Shown here: one piece after another, positions 7,020 to 47,288 of the stretch | Layout of the letters: every line of letters starts with the position of its first letter | Numbering within the stretch: position 1 is the first letter of the stretch | The notes under the pieces: generated by a model | Told to the model about the DNA's origin: nothing | The model's input: only the letters and a program-made list of their open reading frames with translations | Databases searched by the model: none | Translations under genes and position numbers: made by a program | NCBI GenBank assembly: GCA_964503265.1 | Contig: CAZCYO010000002.1 | Coordinates: 130,604 to 194,603, forward strand | Reading direction: 5' to 3' | Length of the DNA stretch: 64,000 nucleotides | Origin: an uncultured Gammaproteobacteria bacterium | GTDB taxonomy: Bacteria; Patescibacteriota; Microgenomatia; Levybacterales; UBA12049

Positions 7020-7802
7020 CTACTCTTCCAGATTTTCACAACTGGAGAGTACTTTTTCTAGTTCATCTGGCAAGGCAGCAGTAAAAGAGATAGGTTCACC
7101 TGTAGTAGGGTTACTAAAGGAAATTGAATATGCATGAAGAAAGACTCTTTCGAGAAGTTGTCTGTCATCTCGTGACGTTTTACGCCCTGCATAGAGAAAA
7201 TCCGCAAAAACTGGATGATTAAGGTATTTCATATGAACTCGGATTTGATGCGTACGGCCTGTTTCAGGACTTACTTCAAGAAGTGAAAGTGTTTCTTTTT
7301 TCTTATTCATTTTAAGAACCACGTGCTTTGTTACATGATAGCGCGTGAGCGCTTCTCGACCACCTGCAACAACACCAAACTGCCGTCTATTCCAGGGAAG
7401 CCTTCCAACAGGAATGTTTATTTCTCCATCAATTGGAACAACTTTTCCATGGACAAGTGTCAAATATGTTTTTTTAACTGATCGTTCTTTAAATTGTTTT
7501 TGAAGTGCCTCGAATGACTCTTTGGTTTTTGCGATAAGCAGTATTCCTGATGTTTCTTTATCAATTCTGTGAACAATGCCTCCCCGTTCTAAAAAAAGTT
7601 GATTATAATCATACATTTTTTCTCCTGTTTCATCGTCAACTTCTTCAACTCTCGCTGGAGCTGGAGGAAGATGTAAGTACTCTTCTGACCAATCTTGGAT
7701 CGTCGCTTCATGAATCGTGGTATCTGATTTATTAACTGTTACACCCGCTGGTTTGTTAATAACCAGAAGTGCTTCGTCTTCGTAAATAATTGTGGGTATC
7801 AT
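7020..7802 (-). CDS. RluA-family 23S rRNA/tRNA pseudouridine synthase
   Basis: Catalytic motif HRIDKETSGILLIAKT and overall RluA/RluD architecture. Confidence 0.8.
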   Translation of the reverse strand: MIPTIIYEDEALLVINKPAGVTVNKSDTTIHEATIQDWSEEYLHLPPAPARVEEVDDETGEKMYDYNQLFLERGGIVHRIDKETSGILLIAKTKESFEALQKQFKERSVKKTYLTLVHGKVVPIDGEINIPVGRLPWNRRQFGVVAGGREALTRYHVTKHVVLKMNKKKETLSLLEVSPETGRTHQIRVHMKYLNHPVFADFLYAGRKTSRDDRQLLERVFLHAYSISFSNPTTGEPISFTAALPDELEKVLSSCENLEE

Positions 7803-11487: not shown

Positions 11488-11571
11488 GCCGAGGTGGCGG
11501 AATGGTATACGCGGCAGTCTCAAAAACTGCTGGCCTTAACGGCCTTGAGGGTTCGAGTCCCTCCCCCGGTA
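11488..11571 (+). tRNA. tRNA-Leu (anticodon CAA), class II with long variable arm; CCA not encoded
   Basis: Acceptor GCCGAGG, D-arm GCGGAATGGTATACGCG, anticodon stem-loop GCAGT-CTCAAAA-ACTGC, variable arm GGCC-TTAAC-GGCC, T-arm GAGGG-TTCGAGT-CCCTC, 3' acceptor strand CCCCGGT (one A:C mismatch, one G:U), discriminator A. Confidence 0.8.
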
Positions 11572-29552: not shown

Positions 29553-31046
29553 ATGCTGCCTCGTAAACTTTGCTTTGTTGACTTAGAAACCACTGGTGGA
29601 TCATCTAGCCATGATCGTGTGATTGAAATTGGGATGGTTCGAGTAGAAGACGGAATTATTACGAAAGAGTACCAGTCCCTCATCAATCCCGAAAAACATA
29701 TTCCTCCAGAAATTGAAAGACTAACAGGAATCACTGAACGAGATGTAGAAAAAGCTCCTCTTTTTTATGAGATTAAGGATGAAATTTTAGAGACACTTGA
29801 AGATTGTTTCTTCGTCGCACATAATGTGCGCTTTGACTATGGATTCTTAAAAAGTGAATTCGCTCGGCTTCACATGCCATTTTCACCAAAACATTTCTGT
29901 ACGGTAAAACTGTCCCGCCTCCTCTATCCAACAGAAAGACATCATAATCTCGATGCTGTTATGACACGTACGGGAATCTCATGTGAGAATCGCCATCGTG
30001 CATTTGATGATGCGAAGGTGCTGCATGAATTTTTCCAACATTCACTCAAACAATTCCCTCTCACTGTTTTAGAAAAAGCCGTAAGTATCGCGATGAAAAA
30101 ACCATCTCTCCCGACCAAACTTAATCAAATTGATCTCGACAAACTTCCAGAAGCACCCGGGGTTTATATTTTTTATGGAAAATCCGAATCTCAAAGTTCG
30201 AAATTCGAACTTAAGGAACCACTGGTTCCTTTATATATCGGTAAAAGTATTAACCTTCGGGAACGTGTACTTTCACATTTCGCAGCAGACATCCGAAATA
30301 GTACGGAGATGAAAATAACTCAACAAATAGAACATATCGACACCATTCAGACAGCGGGTGAACTGGGAGCGCTCTTCACTGAATCTGCCATGATTAAAAA
30401 AATGCTTCCTCTCTATAATAAAATGCTTCGCCGAAAACAAGAATTAGTTGCGATAAAACATACCGTAGATGAGCATGGGTATGAAACAACGTATTTAGAG
30501 CCAATACATACAGTAGATCCGCAAGAGTTTTCAACGTTTCTTGGTTTTTTTCGCTCACGAAAACAGGCAAAAGACTATTTAACAACGGTAGCAAAAGAGC
30601 ATACTCTTTGTGAAAAATTGCTTGGACTAGAAAATACGAAGACTGAGTGCTTTAACTACCGTCTAGAACGCTGTAGAGGCGCTTGTATGGCACGTGAACT
30701 TCCTATCGCATACAATATGCGGTTTGTCTTGGCATTCTCTGGTATGAAAGTGAAACCATGGCCATTTACTGGACCCATTATGATTGAGGAAAAAAATGAT
30801 TGGTCAGGGAAAAGCGAGTATTTCTTAATAAAAGATTGGTGTTATTTAGGCAGTATTATATATGATGAGGATGGAACAGAGAAAAAAACGATGACTAATA
30901 CTTTGGAATTTGATGTAGATATATATAAAATCCTTCTTAGATTTATGCAATCTCCGAAAAATCTAAAAACAATCAAACATCTTTCCAAAGAACAGGCATC
31001 AGATTTAGAATCACAACTGTCATCTAAGAGGTTACTTCCTTCTTAA
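29553..31046 (+). CDS. DEDDh (DnaQ-like) 3'-5' exonuclease fused to a GIY-YIG nuclease domain (Cho-like architecture)
   Basis: N-terminal CFVDLETTGG...HNVRFDYGFL...HRAFDDAKV exonuclease motifs I-III; central GVYIFYGKSE...LYIGKSINLRERV GIY-YIG motif. ATG at 29553 preferred over the TTG at 29535. Confidence 0.7.
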   Translation: MLPRKLCFVDLETTGGSSSHDRVIEIGMVRVEDGIITKEYQSLINPEKHIPPEIERLTGITERDVEKAPLFYEIKDEILETLEDCFFVAHNVRFDYGFLKSEFARLHMPFSPKHFCTVKLSRLLYPTERHHNLDAVMTRTGISCENRHRAFDDAKVLHEFFQHSLKQFPLTVLEKAVSIAMKKPSLPTKLNQIDLDKLPEAPGVYIFYGKSESQSSKFELKEPLVPLYIGKSINLRERVLSHFAADIRNSTEMKITQQIEHIDTIQTAGELGALFTESAMIKKMLPLYNKMLRRKQELVAIKHTVDEHGYETTYLEPIHTVDPQEFSTFLGFFRSRKQAKDYLTTVAKEHTLCEKLLGLENTKTECFNYRLERCRGACMARELPIAYNMRFVLAFSGMKVKPWPFTGPIMIEEKNDWSGKSEYFLIKDWCYLGSIIYDEDGTEKKTMTNTLEFDVDIYKILLRFMQSPKNLKTIKHLSKEQASDLESQLSSKRLLPS

Positions 31047-31249
31047 CGAGCACTTCCAGAAGCGCTTACTTGTGTGACAGCAGAACCACCATTTGATACA
31101 ACCATTTGACCAGTTAAGAGAACGACCACAATCATAACGATAAATGCTCCACTTGCTAAGATAATCATTGTTAAATCATCTGTTCCATGTCCCATGTGTT
31201 TTAAATGTCCTCCACTAGTAGTAGCTTTTTTTACAACTTTCTTTTTCAT
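31043..31249 (-). CDS. small membrane protein with His-rich N-terminal segment (GGHLKHMGHGTDD) and one TM helix
   Basis: 68 aa; strong SD GGGAGGUGA 6 nt upstream; sits directly behind conserved leader copy 1. Confidence 0.45.
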   Translation of the reverse strand: MKKKVVKKATTSGGHLKHMGHGTDDLTMIILASGAFIVMIVVVLLTGQMVVSNGGSAVTQVSASGSAR

Positions 31250-31410
31250 ATCTATTCACCTCCCTTCACCTTGATTATTTCTTAAATTACTATTTCAAGG
31301 GATGTCGCAACGTCTTTAGATTTGCGACGCTTTCACCTTAATTATTTAATCTATAAATAGTAAGTGATGCCGAAATAGTACGAAAGTACTTTTTGGCGCC
31401 TCTTCCTACA
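31250..31410 (-). promoter_or_regulatory. conserved ~160-nt 5' leader, copy 1 (candidate cis-regulatory RNA or riboswitch-like element)
   Basis: About 93% identical over ~160 nt to 45442..45602; both copies abut a minus-strand start codon. Contains a duplicated module AAUAAUYAAGGUGAARG(G) carrying the SD. Confidence 0.5.
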
Positions 31411-31548
31411 GTAATAATAATCTATATATTTAGCATACAATACTGACTGAGGAGGTTGTCAAGAATTAATTGAATATGTTACCTTTTCAATCTCGTCGAA
31501 GAAGATAAATGTATGAAGGAAACTAAACGCTCATTTCTAAATGCTAGC

Positions 31549-45027: not shown

Positions 45028-45441
45028 TTACATCCCTTTTGGCTGAAGCATAGCGATACGATTTCCTTCTGTATCGATAATACCTGAGAAGAGACCTACT
45101 CCTGGAATATCGTCAGGTTTTTCAGGTCCGCCCATTCCCCCAAGTACTTTTCCACCTGCTGCTGTCACAGCTTTCATCGCTTCATAAATGTCATCAACTG
45201 CGACGACGACTGATGGATGCTGAGCTTCCCCACCTCTTTTATAAAACCCACCATTAATCGCACCTGGTGTAGTAGAACGATTATCTGTACTTGTCTCTGT
45301 GGTCATCACTGTTACGTAATTCCCCATCTCAGGACCCAACTGGTGCATCCCCCATCCGAAAACTGTCTCGTAGAATTTCTTAATCCGATCCATATCATCA
45401 GCTGGTATTTCAAAATGAACTACTGGATTTTTTTTATTCAT
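45028..45441 (-). CDS. VOC-family (glyoxalase/bleomycin-resistance/dioxygenase fold) protein
   Basis: MNKKNPVVHFEIPADDMDRIKKFYETVFGW... VOC pattern. ATG at 45441 with SD GGGGGUGA is preferred over the upstream GTG at 45462. Confidence 0.7.
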   Translation of the reverse strand: MNKKNPVVHFEIPADDMDRIKKFYETVFGWGMHQLGPEMGNYVTVMTTETSTDNRSTTPGAINGGFYKRGGEAQHPSVVVAVDDIYEAMKAVTAAGGKVLGGMGGPEKPDDIPGVGLFSGIIDTEGNRIAMLQPKGM

Positions 45442-45602
45442 ATATGATTCACCCCCCTTCACCTTGATTATTTCTTAAACTACTATTTCAAGGGATGTCG
45501 CAATATCTTTAGATTTGCGCCCCTTTCACCTTGATTATTTAATCTATAAATAGTAAGTGATGCCGAAATTGTACGAAAGTACTTTTTGGCGCCTCTTCCT
45601 AC
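45442..45602 (-). promoter_or_regulatory. conserved ~160-nt 5' leader, copy 2 (candidate cis-regulatory RNA)
   Basis: Near-identical to 31250..31410. Transcript begins ...GUAGGAAGAGGCGCC... and ends ...AAUAAUCAAGGUGAAGGGGGGUGAAUCAUAU-AUG. Confidence 0.5.
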
Positions 45603-45661
45603 ATTAGTTATATATTGTAATAGAAATATTATTTTTTTTGTAGCTCTTATAGAAATAAGCT

Positions 45662-45704
45662 ACAAAAATAAGCCAGGGCTCTTTTTAAAAGAGTGGCCTG
45701 GCTT
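45662..45704 (-). terminator. rho-independent terminator downstream of the GlsB-family gene
   Basis: AAGCCAGGCCACUCUUUUAAAAAGAGCCCUGGCUU followed by a U-rich run on the minus strand. Confidence 0.45.
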
Positions 45705-45715
45705 ATCATAAAGAC

Positions 45716-45982
45716 TTAGAGAGCTCTTCGTCCTGCGATCGCTTTCCAAACGAAAATAGCGATACATGCTCCGATTACTCCGACGATAATCCCTGGAACA
45801 CTTAGTCCGTTATCGGTAGGTGTTGCTGGAGAGATGAAACCAAGAAGTGTCGTTCCTAAGAATCCTCCTATGATTCCAGCTACAACGTTAGCGACCCATC
45901 CCATCTCACCGTCAGTTTTCATGACCATGGATGCGATCCATCCGACTAACCCTGCTAATACTAATGTAATAATTAAACTCAT
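45716..45982 (-). CDS. GlsB/YeaQ/YmgE-family stress-response membrane protein
   Basis: 88 aa, Gly-rich TM helices (VAGIIGGFLGTTLLGF...IIVGVIGACIAIFVWKAI). Confidence 0.7.
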   Translation of the reverse strand: MSLIITLVLAGLVGWIASMVMKTDGEMGWVANVVAGIIGGFLGTTLLGFISPATPTDNGLSVPGIIVGVIGACIAIFVWKAIAGRRAL

Positions 45983-46023
45983 AATTTTATATACCTCCTT
46001 TCATTTAAATTTTTTAGGTGTTT

Positions 46024-46260
46024 TTACTTTGTTCCACCTTGAACATTCACATCAATTTTTCCTGGTACATTTATTTGCGGAGAAACAGATTGACGCATCA
46101 TTGGTAACCCGTACACGAAGAAAAAGAATGCGATTAGTAGTACAACGATAACGCCGAGTATCATTCCCATGCCGTTACTTGATTCAGTTGTCCCTGGATT
46201 ATTTACTATTGTTGCCATATATCTATCACCATCCTTTCTTAAGAAACACTTAATAATCAT
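46024..46260 (-). CDS. small hypothetical membrane protein
   Basis: Single TM helix; start probably the internal Met at 46218. Confidence 0.3.
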   Translation of the reverse strand: MIIKCFLRKDGDRYMATIVNNPGTTESSNGMGMILGVIVVLLIAFFFFVYGLPMMRQSVSPQINVPGKIDVNVQGGTK

Positions 46261-46346
46261 ATTGTAATAACACCGAGCTAAAAAAACGTAAGCTGCGGGT
46301 AAGGAACGTGTAATAGATGAGCTTAGAGGAAGATGAGATTAAAACG

Positions 46347-47288
46347 CTAGGCACGAACTGTAACGACGACTTTTCCCTTAGGGTGGGATGTTTCGAGGTG
46401 TGTGTATGCGGCTGCTGTCTCATCAAGAGTAAATGATTTGTCAATTTGTGGCCTTATAACTCCTGAATCGACGAGTTCTGCAAGTCGTTTTAGACGAATA
46501 GTGTTCGTATCGGTAAATTGCCCTACTCCAGTAATTTCATGCTCACTAGCTTTCGCTTGATCTACCTGGCCTGTCATCGAGACGAGTACTCCACCTTTTT
46601 TAAGAACTCCAAATGATCTTTCAAGCGTCTCTCCCCCGACAGTATCAAATACTGCATCATAGTCTGAGATTTTTTCTTCAAATTTTTCTGTTTTATAATC
46701 GATCACTTCATCAGCACCAAGTGACTTCACGAGCTCTTCATCTCCCATACTCACGGTCGTCGCCACATATGCACCTAAGTGTTTAGCCAGCTGGATCGCG
46801 ATCGATCCTATTCCCCCAGCTCCACCATGAATAAGAATCTTCTGACCAGTGGTTAGTTTCATCGAATCTTCAAGAGCCTGGATACTACTTACTCCCACAA
46901 GAACGAGAGATGCAGCTTCTGAGAAGTCGACAGATGTTGGTTTCTTTGCAGTATTCTTCGTATTCGCAGCTGCAAATTCAGCAATCGCTCCTGAACCCCC
47001 GTTTACGACGACAGCCTGTCCATAGACTTCATCCCCCACAGAAAATTCAGTCACACCAGGCGCAACCTCAGTCACGACCCCTGAAAAATCTCCCCCGATC
47101 GTCACAGGGAAAGTAAGTGGGATCATTTCTTTCATATACCCCATGCGTACTTTATAGTCAAAAGGATTTAACGCTGCTGCATGAACCTCGACCATAATCT
47201 GTGAGTCTTTAAGCACAGGAGTTGGTGCATTTTCGTTTATTTCAATAACTGAGGAATCACCGTAAGAATTATATTGTGCTGCTTTCAT
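46347..47288 (-). CDS. MDR-superfamily NADPH:quinone oxidoreductase / zinc-type alcohol dehydrogenase-like protein
   Basis: GroES-like N-terminal domain and Rossmann GGAGGIGSIAIQLAK motif. Confidence 0.8.
   Translation of the reverse strand: MKAAQYNSYGDSSVIEINENAPTPVLKDSQIMVEVHAAALNPFDYKVRMGYMKEMIPLTFPVTIGGDFSGVVTEVAPGVTEFSVGDEVYGQAVVVNGGSGAIAEFAAANTKNTAKKPTSVDFSEAASLVLVGVSSIQALEDSMKLTTGQKILIHGGAGGIGSIAIQLAKHLGAYVATTVSMGDEELVKSLGADEVIDYKTEKFEEKISDYDAVFDTVGGETLERSFGVLKKGGVLVSMTGQVDQAKASEHEITGVGQFTDTNTIRLKRLAELVDSGVIRPQIDKSFTLDETAAAYTHLETSHPKGKVVVTVRA

What the first reader, a model, noticed from the sequence alone, without database searches (positions are those of the whole stretch)
31250..31410. 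Conserved leader copy 1 in front of a His-rich small membrane protein
Second copy of the element described at 45442-45602. It ends exactly at the ATG of a 68-aa protein whose N-terminus (GGHLKHMGHGTDD) looks like a metal-binding patch ahead of a single TM helix. That a His-rich membrane peptide and a VOC-family enzyme share one regulatory leader suggests both respond to the same signal (metal ion or reactive electrophile). Differences between the copies are few and cluster in predicted helices, useful as natural covariation evidence.
Basis: seen in the sequence. Interest (0 to 1): 0.6.

Follow-up and report, generated by a model that had tools for sequence, protein, structure and literature searches.

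The report
Shared modular 5′ leader, CPR bacterium
Two unrelated genes of an uncultivated ultrasmall (Patescibacteria) bacterium, and their counterparts in two relatives, carry the same roughly 160-base structured leader built from repeated ribosome-binding-site-like tracts and hairpins; it belongs to no known RNA family, its signal or function is still unknown, and it is probably a post-transcriptional expression module rather than a classical riboswitch.

Summary
Window 31250-31410 and 45442-45603 (minus strand) are about 94% identical: 9 substitutions and 1 indel. Similarity starts shortly after each promoter and stops at the ATG of a 68-aa membrane protein gene and a 137-aa VOC gene.

The small ORF is a genuine gene (dN/dS 0.13-0.35, syntenic in six organisms). 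The VOC and small-ORF orthologues in two related Patescibacteria also carry homologous leaders, so the pairing is old. The near-identity in this genome reflects recent gene conversion that excludes coding sequence. Three other relatives lack the element at the small ORF.

The leader is modular. Each unit has an SD-like purine tract, a bulged hairpin, AUCAC, an A/U-rich tail and another SD-like tract. The tail is homologous to the native ribosome-binding region of element-free relatives.

Both hairpins show compensatory changes, and the units evolve more slowly than synonymous sites. No Rfam family matches. There is no terminator and no ligand-pocket-like core. SD sequestration, thermometer behaviour and a long-range helix all failed shuffle controls.

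Best reading (confidence 0.38): a lineage-specific 5′-UTR module for stability or ribosome loading, of the STAB-SD plus hairpin type. A factor- or ligand-responsive switch is not excluded. The two window copies supply no covariation; the orthologues do.

The parts
31250..31410 (-). Leader copy 1 (whole element: two units, ending at the start codon of the small ORF)
   Evidence: covariance model R1 gives 88.7 bits for unit 1
31432..31462 (-). Promoter of the small-ORF transcript: TTGACA-N19-TATGCT, with TG directly upstream of the -10. It is not part of the repeated element.
   Evidence: Conserved in organisms A, B, C, D and E upstream of the small ORF; consensus reading only, no TSS data
31399..31409 (-). 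S0: SD-like purine tract GUAGGAAGAGG directly 5′ of hairpin 1, with no start codon after it
   Evidence: Predicted -8.6 kcal/mol to the canonical 16S 3′ tail; an equivalent tract sits before hairpin 1 in all orthologues
31369..31397 (-). Hairpin 1: 7 bp, then a 1-nt 3′ bulge, then 5 bp, with loop UUUC
   Evidence: 12 pairs, 91.7% of cells paired versus 24-40% for slid partners, 5 pairs with compensatory double changes across 6 sequences
31360..31368 (-). a1: AUCACUUAC, a conserved post-hairpin motif resembling the 16S 3′ end (anti-SD-like)
   Evidence: AUC.C is invariant or nearly so in the units; specific pairing to SD-like tracts is only weakly above shuffles
31341..31359 (-). A/U-rich linker 1 (UAUUUAUAGAUUAAAUAAU) with conserved AUAGAU and UAAU words
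31330..31340 (-). S1: internal SD-like tract UAAGGUGAAAG, a decoy with no start codon
   Evidence: -8.5 kcal/mol; homologous to the real SD of organism C's one-unit leader
31304..31328 (-). Hairpin 2: 7 bp, then a 1-nt 3′ bulge, then 3 bp, with loop UAAA
   Evidence: 10 pairs, 92.5% paired versus 15-50% slid, 4 pairs with compensatory changes in 4 sequences
31295..31303 (-). a2: AUCCCUUGA, the post-hairpin anti-SD-like motif of unit 2
   Evidence: duplex with the SD region -10.1 kcal/mol, z = -0.74, not significant
31274..31294 (-). A/U-rich linker 2
31256..31273 (-). Real Shine-Dalgarno region CAAGGUGAAGGGAGGUGA
   Evidence: -20.7 kcal/mol to the anti-SD tail; its 3′ end lies 6 nt before the AUG
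31043..31249 (-). 68-aa small membrane protein gene: Lys-rich N-terminus, GGHLKHMGHGTDD motif, one hydrophobic helix
   Evidence: Five to six orthologues, syntenic; dN/dS 0.13-0.35 at dS 0.7-1.9; no Pfam family
45442..45603 (-). Leader copy 2 (whole element), ending at the start codon of the VOC gene
   Evidence: R1 gives 87.4 bits
45562..45590 (-). Hairpin 1 of copy 2 (one A-U pair replaced by A·A)
45497..45521 (-). Hairpin 2 of copy 2 (one pair lost, one gained relative to copy 1)
45449..45466 (-). Real SD of the VOC gene, CAAGGUGAAGGGGGGUGA
   Evidence: (-19.8 kcal/mol)
45028..45441 (-). VOC (glyoxalase / bleomycin-resistance / dioxygenase superfamily) gene, 137 aa
   Evidence: PF22677 at 40.2 bits and PF00903 at 37.3 bits, both above cut-off; orthologues at 85% and 81% start at the same MNK

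Best explanation
SHOWN. The element is a lineage-specific, modular, structured 5′ untranslated leader.
- Each unit consists of a moderate Shine-Dalgarno-like purine tract, a stable hairpin with a single 3′ bulge, a conserved AUCAC-type word, and an A/U-rich tail ending in the next SD-like tract. The last tract is the real SD.
- The tail is homologous to the native ribosome-binding region of the small-ORF gene in a relative that lacks the element. The units are therefore start-codon-less reiterations of that gene's own translation-initiation region, separated by hairpins.
- The same leader is present on the VOC gene in three organisms. In the window genome the two copies were recently re-homogenised by gene conversion.

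INFERRED direction of transfer. The leader was probably copied from the small-ORF gene onto the VOC gene.

INFERRED mechanism. The leader acts in cis on the mRNA. The decoy SD-like tracts engage 30S subunits (the 16S 3′ end) and, together with the adjacent hairpins, protect the 5′ region from 5′-to-3′ decay and/or act as standby ribosome-loading sites. The two genes would then share mRNA stability and translation efficiency. This is a STAB-SD plus 5′-hairpin type of expression module, not a metabolite-sensing riboswitch.
For: - The two copies end at the ATG, and their flanks are unrelated.
- Homologous leaders precede the VOC and small-ORF orthologues in organisms B and C. R1 independently finds unit 2 of the B VOC leader at 31 bits.
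- Hairpin covariation is present.
- Units are 66-82% identical between organisms (shuffle mean about 46%, maximum 61%), while synonymous sites of the adjacent genes differ at 45-69% of positions. This indicates constraint.
- SD-like tracts of -8 to -11 kcal/mol sit directly 5′ of every hairpin, with no usable start codon after them.
- Unit tails align with organism D's native short leader.
- The number of units varies: one in C small, two type-1 units in C VOC, and type 1 plus type 2 in A and B.
- No terminator follows the hairpins.
- The SD stays largely accessible; opening it costs 1.1-4.7 kcal/mol.
- STAB-SD precedent: an SD-like 5′-UTR tract binds the 30S subunit and blocks RNase J1 (PMC4113751).
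Against: - No expression or stability data exist.
- The TSS is unknown, and S0 lies an estimated 20-60 nt from the predicted 5′ end.
- The 16S tail was assumed to be canonical, because no 16S gene is in the window.
- Enrichment of SD-like windows over shuffles is marginal: 2-3 of 100 shuffles reach it in A and C, and there is none in B.
- A generic stabiliser would be expected on many highly expressed genes. It occurs on only two of the roughly 73 ORFs listed in the window, and on the same two in the relatives, which looks more like a specific regulon.
- The conserved single-stranded words (AUCAC, AUAGAU) are not explained by 30S binding alone.
- Presence of RNase J in this organism was not tested.
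Confidence: 0.38

Rival explanations
1. Signal-responsive translational regulator. The repeated units are binding sites for a trans-acting RNA-binding protein or small RNA, or less likely a direct ligand sensor. This factor represses or activates translation of both genes in response to one stress, such as a metal or an electrophile.
For: - The element is restricted to the same two unrelated genes in three organisms, and nothing else carries it in 64 kb plus about 55 kb of related loci.
- Conserved single-stranded words and bulged hairpins are typical protein-recognition features.
- Two repeated units would suit a dimeric binder.
- A Zn-ADH/quinone-oxidoreductase gene (plus DUF899 in organism C) lies next to the VOC gene, which gives the region a detoxification flavour.
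Against: - No Rfam family matches any of the six leaders.
- No multi-stem junction or conserved internal loop could form a ligand pocket.
- Hairpin loops vary: YUUYG in type 1, UAAA or UUAC in type 2.
- Alternative pairings that would hide the SD are not better than shuffles.
- No candidate regulator gene is adjacent.
- Unit 1 of the B VOC leader has decayed to background similarity, and relatives D, E and F do without the element.
Confidence: 0.27
2. A selfish or neutral modular intergenic repeat, like the BOX, REP or Correia elements, or simply a by-product of local duplication and gene conversion, with no selected function of its own.
For: - It is derived and dynamic. It is absent from outgroup F, from basal D, and from E.
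- Unit number varies, and it shows tandem duplication, a 32-nt insertion carrying a second copy of the hairpin-1 arm, and recent gene conversion.
- Two copies in 64 kb is compatible with a few dozen per genome, and the whole genomes could not be scanned.
Against: - Both copies are in the sense orientation, lie exactly between promoter and ATG, and supply the SD.
- The positions are orthologous in three organisms.
- Divergence is lower than at synonymous sites, and the hairpins show compensatory changes.
- There are no extra copies in about 120 kb examined, no terminal inverted repeats or target duplications, and no hit in viral contigs.
Confidence: 0.17
3. DNA-level operators. The two palindromes are binding sites for a transcription factor that blocks elongation or initiation downstream of the promoter.
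For: Both hairpins are near-perfect inverted repeats lying just downstream of the promoter. The inner core kTAC-TTy-GTAm of hairpin 1 is fairly conserved.
Against: - The stems change by compensatory substitutions rather than keeping half-site sequences.
- Hairpins 1 and 2 have unrelated sequences.
- Each has an asymmetric 3′ bulge.
- The conserved parts of the unit are the non-palindromic tails.
- No regulator gene is adjacent.
Confidence: 0.06
4. An RNA thermometer: the SD is masked at low temperature and melts open when it is warm.
For: Predicted SD accessibility rises with temperature in some leaders, for example A_VOC from 0.20 at 10 °C to 0.51 at 45 °C.
Against: - The rise is gradual and similar to that of the element-free control. 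C_VOC is flat.
- The SD is not inside a dedicated hairpin.
- No fourU or ROSE-like motif is present.
- Rfam thermoregulator hits are far below threshold: 18.7 bits against a gathering score of 98.
Confidence: 0.03

Closest known systems
STAB-SD 5′ mRNA stabiliser of Bacillus thuringiensis cry3A (PMC4113751), and 5′ stem-loop plus RBS stabilisers such as the B. subtilis aprE leader (the latter from my own knowledge)
   Same: An SD-like tract (GGAAAGAGG-like here, GAAAGGAGG in cry3A from my own knowledge) sits far upstream of the start codon and does not start translation. It lies next to or near a stable hairpin in a long 5′ UTR.
   Different: Here the tracts are reiterated two or three times in a repeated unit, and each is a degenerate copy of the gene's own translation-initiation region. 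They are weaker SDs (-8 to -11 kcal/mol). The element is shared by two unrelated genes in Patescibacteria. No stability data exist, and RNase J was not checked.
Guanidine-II (mini-ykkC) riboswitch: two tandem small hairpins upstream of small membrane transporter genes (own knowledge)
   Same: Two tandem simple hairpins in a 5′ UTR, close to the SD of a small membrane protein gene.
   Different: The defining ACGR tetraloops are absent; the loops here are YUUYG and UAAA or UUAC. There is no Rfam hit. The conserved nucleotides lie outside the hairpins.
Shared long 5′ UTRs of cold-shock genes (the cspA family 'cold box') and ROSE elements of small heat-shock genes (own knowledge)
   Same: Several genes in one genome carry homologous long leaders that give them a common post-transcriptional response.
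   Different: Those leaders sit on paralogous or functionally related genes and have demonstrated temperature-dependent structures. Here the genes are unrelated and no thermometer behaviour is predicted.
Modular intergenic repeats (pneumococcal BOX elements, Neisseria Correia elements, REP/BIME) (own knowledge)
   Same: Modular build with a variable number of internal units, stable RNA hairpins, location in 5′ UTRs, and evidence of duplication and conversion.
   Different: Only two loci are seen, always in the sense orientation, abutting the ATG and supplying the SD, at orthologous positions across genomes. There are no terminal inverted repeats.
CsrA/Rsm-regulated leaders (own knowledge)
   Same: Several purine-rich GGA-containing tracts, one of which overlaps the SD.
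   Different: The GGA tracts are not in hairpin loops. The internal tract of the window leader is AAGGUGA, without GGA. No csrA gene was seen near either locus, although only part of the genome was visible.

Membership tests
Any Rfam 15 family (riboswitches, leaders, thermoregulators, sRNAs) | Covariance-model score at or above the family's gathering threshold | tested here: not met
   The whole window at gathering threshold gives only a tRNA. Permissive searches of both window leaders give a best hit of 18.7-23 bits against thresholds of 56-98. The orthologous leaders of organisms B and C give no hit at E<=1.
Riboswitch (generic) | A conserved ligand-binding core: invariant nucleotides in junctions or internal loops of a multi-helix fold | tested here: not met
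   Only two independent simple hairpins are supported. The RNAalifold consensus adds nothing that survives controls. Conserved bases lie in linear tails.
Riboswitch (generic) | An expression platform: a terminator, or an SD-sequestering helix that alternates with the aptamer | tested here: inconclusive
   There is no terminator-like site in either leader. The candidate SD- or AUG-pairing helices are not better than shuffles (z -0.95 to +0.59; mean z -0.96).
STAB-SD / 5′ stabiliser | An SD-like tract in the 5′ UTR that is complementary to the 16S 3′ end and is not followed by a start codon | tested here: met
   Tracts of -8.3 to -11.0 kcal/mol lie directly before hairpin 1 or hairpin 2 in five of the six leaders, and before hairpin 2 only in B_VOC. 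The internal B_small tract is weaker at -6.2. No usable start codon follows within 18 nt. Caveat: the canonical 16S tail was assumed.
STAB-SD / 5′ stabiliser | The tract lies at the 5′ end of the stable transcript and lengthens mRNA half-life | not testable with these tools
   No transcript-end or half-life data are available.
STAB-SD / 5′ stabiliser | The organism has a 5′-to-3′ exoribonuclease (RNase J) | not tested
   Only about 28 window proteins were scanned against Pfam, and none is RNase J. The rest of the genome is not available.
RNA thermometer (ROSE, fourU) | The SD is paired in a hairpin that melts over a physiological temperature range | tested here: not met
   SD P(unpaired) is 0.26-0.55 at 37 °C. 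Its rise with temperature is gradual and resembles the element-free control.
Guanidine-II (mini-ykkC) | Two hairpins, each capped by a conserved ACGR tetraloop | tested here: not met
   The loops are UUUC(G), UUU(G) or UUC(G) in type 1, and UAAA or UUAC in type 2.
CsrA-type leader | Multiple (A)GGA motifs, typically in hairpin loops, with one overlapping the SD | tested here: inconclusive
   AGGAA occurs in the tracts of organisms B and C and in S0 of organism A, but S1 of A is AAGGUGA. None of the motifs is in a loop.
Dispersed intergenic repeat (REP, BOX, MITE) | Many copies per genome in varied contexts and orientations, with terminal inverted repeats or target duplications | tested here: inconclusive
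   There are two copies in 64 kb and none elsewhere in the roughly 55 kb of related loci scanned with the covariance model, using nhmmer --max and R1 with filters off. The complete genomes could not be scanned.
Transcription-factor operator | Half-site sequences are conserved between sites and between species | tested here: not met
   The stems covary: 5 of 12 and 4 of 10 pairs show double changes. Hairpins 1 and 2 are unrelated in sequence.
VOC superfamily (downstream gene of copy 2) | Pfam Glyoxalase / Ble-like_N domains above the curated cut-off | tested here: met
   PF22677 scores 40.2 bits (cut-off 24.5) and PF00903 scores 37.3 bits (cut-off 20.6).

The most novel reading that the evidence does not exclude
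The leader is a Patescibacteria-specific riboregulatory 'tag'. It would have arisen recently by reiteration of a gene's own ribosome-binding region, and it would place a VOC detoxification enzyme and a His-motif membrane peptide under one trans-acting factor or ligand. That would make it a newly born post-transcriptional regulon in an ultrasmall bacterium, caught in the act of spreading from one gene to another.
Probability: 0.18. Interest if true: 0.65.

Novelty: new variant of a known kind. Interest (0 to 1): 0.42.

Why it matters
- **Patescibacteria regulation.** In a full-text search, only five papers mentioned both Patescibacteria and riboswitches; in the one opened, a review, riboswitches appear only as a proposed engineering tool. 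A structured leader that is conserved, carries compensatory changes and is shared by two unrelated genes would be a concrete native entry point.
- **How leaders originate.** The units derive from the gene's own ribosome-binding region. They were duplicated in tandem, apparently transplanted to a second gene, and homogenised by gene conversion.
- **Practical use.** If it is a stabilising or ribosome-loading module, it could serve as an expression part for the few genetically tractable members of this group.
- **Limits.** The element occurs in only three metagenome-derived organisms, and its function is entirely inferred.

Tried and rejected
1. **Genome-collection scan.** The pattern's 3′ part did not match the window itself. 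It returned 59 essentially chance hits, and the one Dojkabacteria hit (L011) was inspected and is chance.
2. **Metagenome scans.** A locally validated leader pattern gave 0 hits. The VOC protein query gave one unrelated locus. The collection does not hold this lineage.
3. **Viral contigs.** 0 hits.
4. **Plain MFE folding.** z = -1.9 and -1.4, not significant, and the MFE folds of the two copies disagree.
5. **RNAalifold long-range helix.** The proposed pairing between the 3′ half of hairpin 1 and the SD/AUG was rejected because its duplex energies are no better than dinucleotide shuffles.
6. **Anti-SD (AUCAC) to SD-like pairing.** Mean z = -0.96, with only 2 of 9 units below 0.05.
7. **RNA thermometer.** No sharp melting.
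8. **First identity matrix.** Discarded because lenient gap costs gave a 76% shuffle baseline. It was redone.
9. **Trans-complement of the A/U-rich tail elsewhere in the window.** None found.
10. **Upstream ORF or leader peptide after the decoy SDs.** There is no start codon at a usable distance.
11. **Loop-loop (CUUU:AAAG) kissing between hairpins 1 and 2.** It is possible in A and in the B small-ORF leader, but not in C or the B VOC leader, so I did not pursue it.
12. **Strand assignment from G·U versus A·C mismatches.** Uninformative: 2 G·U events against about 3 A·C events.

Full report
**1. The observation**

Both genes lie on the minus strand. Read 5′ to 3′ on that strand, window 31410→31250 and 45603→45442 align with 9 substitutions and one 1-nt indel (157 matches over 167/168 aligned positions). 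Similarity begins a few bases after an AT-rich TATATA stretch and stops at the start codons. Sequence further upstream and the coding sequences are unrelated. Long words from the element occur exactly twice in the 64-kb window, where 0-0.03 are expected.

Copy 1 abuts the ATG of ORF 31043-31249(-). This encodes 68 aa: a Lys-rich N-terminus, the motif GGHLKHMGHGTDD, and then a roughly 22-residue hydrophobic segment. Copy 2 abuts the ATG at 45441 of a 137-aa protein that passes the Pfam cut-offs for Ble-like_N and Glyoxalase, so it is a VOC-superfamily protein.

**2. The small ORF is a real gene in a tiny clade**

The word-indexed search of 5.8 billion proteins found four homologues at 67-77% identity. 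An exhaustive profile search of 1.84 billion cluster representatives found only three representatives.

All homologues sit in the same place, between a SurA_N-like gene and a convergent Cho-like exonuclease gene. Pairwise dN/dS is 0.13-0.35 at dS 0.7-1.9.

The Cho-like neighbour places the organism in Patescibacteria. Three relatives are at 72-77% identity; everything else is at or below 58%, and the named hits among those are Levybacteria, Saccharimonadales and 'Patescibacteria group'.

I call the organisms as follows:
- A: the window.
- B: ENA ERZ2728… samples.
- C: JGI Ga0558… samples.
- D: L004.
- E: L080.
- F: L083.

**3. The leader is older than the duplication in this genome**

Upstream of the small ORF, a promoter TTGACA-N19-TATGCT is conserved in A-E. 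After the promoter:
- A and B carry a two-unit leader. B has an extra 32-nt insertion.
- C carries only the first unit, and that unit's terminal SD-like tract is the real SD.
- D, E and F go almost straight to the SD.

The closest VOC orthologues come from the same samples as B (85% identity) and C (81% identity). They also carry homologous leaders. In C's VOC leader the first unit is duplicated in tandem. VOC homologues at 65-67% identity from other organisms have short, unrelated upstream regions.

A neighbour-joining tree of the Cho-like gene puts F as outgroup and D as basal. A, B, C and E form a clade with 89% bootstrap support, unresolved inside. The element is therefore a derived feature of a small clade. 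It was either gained once and lost in E, or gained in an A/B/C group.

Between organisms, units are 66-82% identical (shuffle mean about 46%, maximum 61%). Synonymous sites of the adjacent genes differ at 45-69% of positions, so the leader is constrained. The exception is unit 1 of B's VOC leader, which has decayed to background.

**4. Anatomy**

The exact feature coordinates come and are listed in the parts section. In the window, the leader reads:
- S0 (GUAGGAAGAGG)
- hairpin 1 (7 bp, a 1-nt 3′ bulge, 5 bp, loop UUUC)
- AUCACUUAC
- A/U-rich linker with AUAGAU…AAUAAU
- S1 (UAAGGUGAAAG)
- hairpin 2 (7 bp, a bulge, 3 bp, loop UAAA)
- AUCCCUUGA
- A/U-rich linker
- CAAGGUGAAGGGAGGUGA (the real SD)
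- AUG

Units 1 and 2 align with each other and with all orthologous units, so the leader is a tandem repeat with a period of about 67 nt.

Hairpin 1:
- 12 pairs, with 91.7% of cells paired, against 24-40% when partners are slid.
- 5 pairs show double (compensatory) changes.
- 0 of 500 shuffles reach the covariation score.

Hairpin 2:
- 10 pairs, with 92.5% paired, against 15-50% slid.
- 4 pairs show double changes.

The sequences are few and related, so these counts support the hairpins without proving them. No further helix is supported.

The unit tails (UAGAU…UAAUC…GAGGUG) align with organism D's native, element-free leader. The units therefore appear to be start-codon-less reiterations of the small ORF's own translation-initiation region, separated by hairpins. 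This implies that the VOC leader, including its SD, was copied from the small-ORF leader.

**5. What it is not**

- **Known RNA family.** No Rfam 15 family matches any of the six leaders, even at permissive thresholds.
- **Transcription attenuator.** No intrinsic terminator follows either hairpin.
- **SD-sequestering switch.** MFE energies are not significantly below shuffles. The RNAalifold helix pairing the 3′ half of hairpin 1 with the SD/AUG is no better than dinucleotide shuffles. The AUCAC-type words pair with the SD-like tracts only slightly better than shuffles (mean z -0.96). Freeing the SD and AUG costs 1.1-4.7 kcal/mol.
- **RNA thermometer.** Predicted SD opening with temperature is gradual and similar to the element-free control.
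- **Abundant dispersed repeat.** Profile and covariance-model scans with filters off find no other copy in the window or in the related loci (nhmmer over all fetched loci; R1 over about 55 kb; window). There is none in viral contigs. Whole genomes could not be scanned.
- **Transcription-factor operator.** The stems covary instead of keeping half-sites, and the two hairpins are unrelated in sequence.

**6. Most likely mechanism**

What remains is a set of reiterated SD-like tracts, each placed directly 5′ of a stable hairpin. Their predicted hybridisation to the canonical anti-SD tail is -8 to -11 kcal/mol, against -15 to -21 for the real SDs, and no usable start codon follows them.

The closest documented analogue is STAB-SD in cry3A mRNA. 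There an SD-like tract in the 5′ UTR binds the 30S subunit without initiating translation, and this blocks RNase J1 (PMC4113751). I therefore favour a cis-acting module for stability or ribosome loading (confidence 0.38).

Two points argue against this and in favour of a specific regulator-binding leader (0.27). First, the element is restricted to the same two unrelated genes. Second, its conserved single-stranded words and bulged hairpins look like recognition features.

A selfish or neutral repeat (0.17), a DNA operator (0.06) and a thermometer (0.03) are less likely.

**7.

- A shared leader implying a common treatment of the two genes is reasonable.
- No evidence identifies a signal.
- The two window copies carry no compensatory changes.

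The ORF is conserved, and the similarity excludes coding sequence. However, the very high identity does come from a recent local event.

**8. Novelty**

The element is not in Rfam and is not an instance of any family I tested. The kind of element, a structured 5′ UTR with SD-like decoys and hairpins, is known. I rate it a new variant of a known kind, of moderate interest, limited by its occurrence in three metagenomic lineages and by the lack of functional data.

Noticed in passing
window 45442-45462 (-): The public protein for the VOC gene (P0006, NCBI/Logan) is 144 aa, apparently called from the GTG at 45462. That GTG lies inside the leader's SD region (GUGAAGGGGGGUGA). Orthologues are 137 aa and start at the ATG at 45441, which has a strong SD whose 3′ end lies 7 nt upstream. 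The 144-aa start is probably a mis-call.
   Followed up: partly
window 31432-31462 (-); L004 798-828; L083 2954-2988: The small-ORF promoter TTGACA…TGTATGCT is conserved across organisms A-E with an unusually long 19-nt spacer, if TATGCT is the -10. The outgroup F has TTGACA-N18-TATGAT.
   Followed up: partly
window 31043-31046; L002 4204-4207: The small ORF and the convergent Cho-like exonuclease gene (RNase_T + UvrC_M + Cho_C) overlap by 4 nt at their 3′ ends in organisms A, B, C and E (8 nt in D). In the outgroup F they are separated by 1-10 nt.
   Followed up: no
L005 697-728: Organism B's small-ORF leader has a 32-nt insertion after hairpin 2. It contains a second copy of the hairpin-1 5′ arm (CUGAGA). 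In the predicted MFE fold, the hairpin-1 3′ arm pairs with this copy instead.
   Followed up: no
L002 3995-4000: In organism C, a minimal start-stop ORF (AUGUAA) sits immediately in front of the small-ORF AUG (GGUGCAUGUAAAUG).
   Followed up: no
window 45640-45705 (-): Two consecutive terminator-like hairpins, each followed by a U-run, lie after the Transgly_assoc (GlsB/YmgE-like) gene 45716-45982. They sit just upstream of leader copy 2, so the VOC gene probably has its own AT-rich and poorly defined promoter in the roughly 35 nt between.
   Followed up: partly
window 45716-47288; L069 1099-7326: The VOC neighbourhood is partly syntenic between A and C. A Zn-ADH/quinone-oxidoreductase gene lies close by in both. 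YchF lies about 5 kb away in A and two genes downstream in C, after a DUF899 thioredoxin-like gene. In A, two small membrane protein genes (Transgly_assoc, 88 aa, and an unassigned 78-aa protein) lie immediately upstream. The region has a stress or detoxification flavour.
   Followed up: partly
L012, L014, L017, L022, L024 (~7160-7330), L025, L031, L044, L064 and about 8 further Asgard loci: This is unrelated to the finding. The mis-designed genome scan picked up a roughly 100-nt stretch that is almost invariant across Promethearchaeota, Hodarchaeota and Hermodarchaeota MAGs. It reads …TATTTAAATATTTGCACAAATGATCATTTAATGCATCACTGAAGATGCATAGATTTATAAATGAAGAGGATCATATAATATT…. It has a TATA-like box, a hairpin ATGCATC-ACTGAA-GATGCAT, and C/D-box-like words. 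In L024 it lies in a 176-nt gap between divergent ORFs. There is no Rfam hit at E<=1. It may be an unannotated conserved ncRNA or promoter region.
   Followed up: partly
window 11488-11571 (+): The only Rfam hit at gathering threshold in the window is an 84-nt tRNA with a long variable arm (52.7 bits).
   Followed up: no
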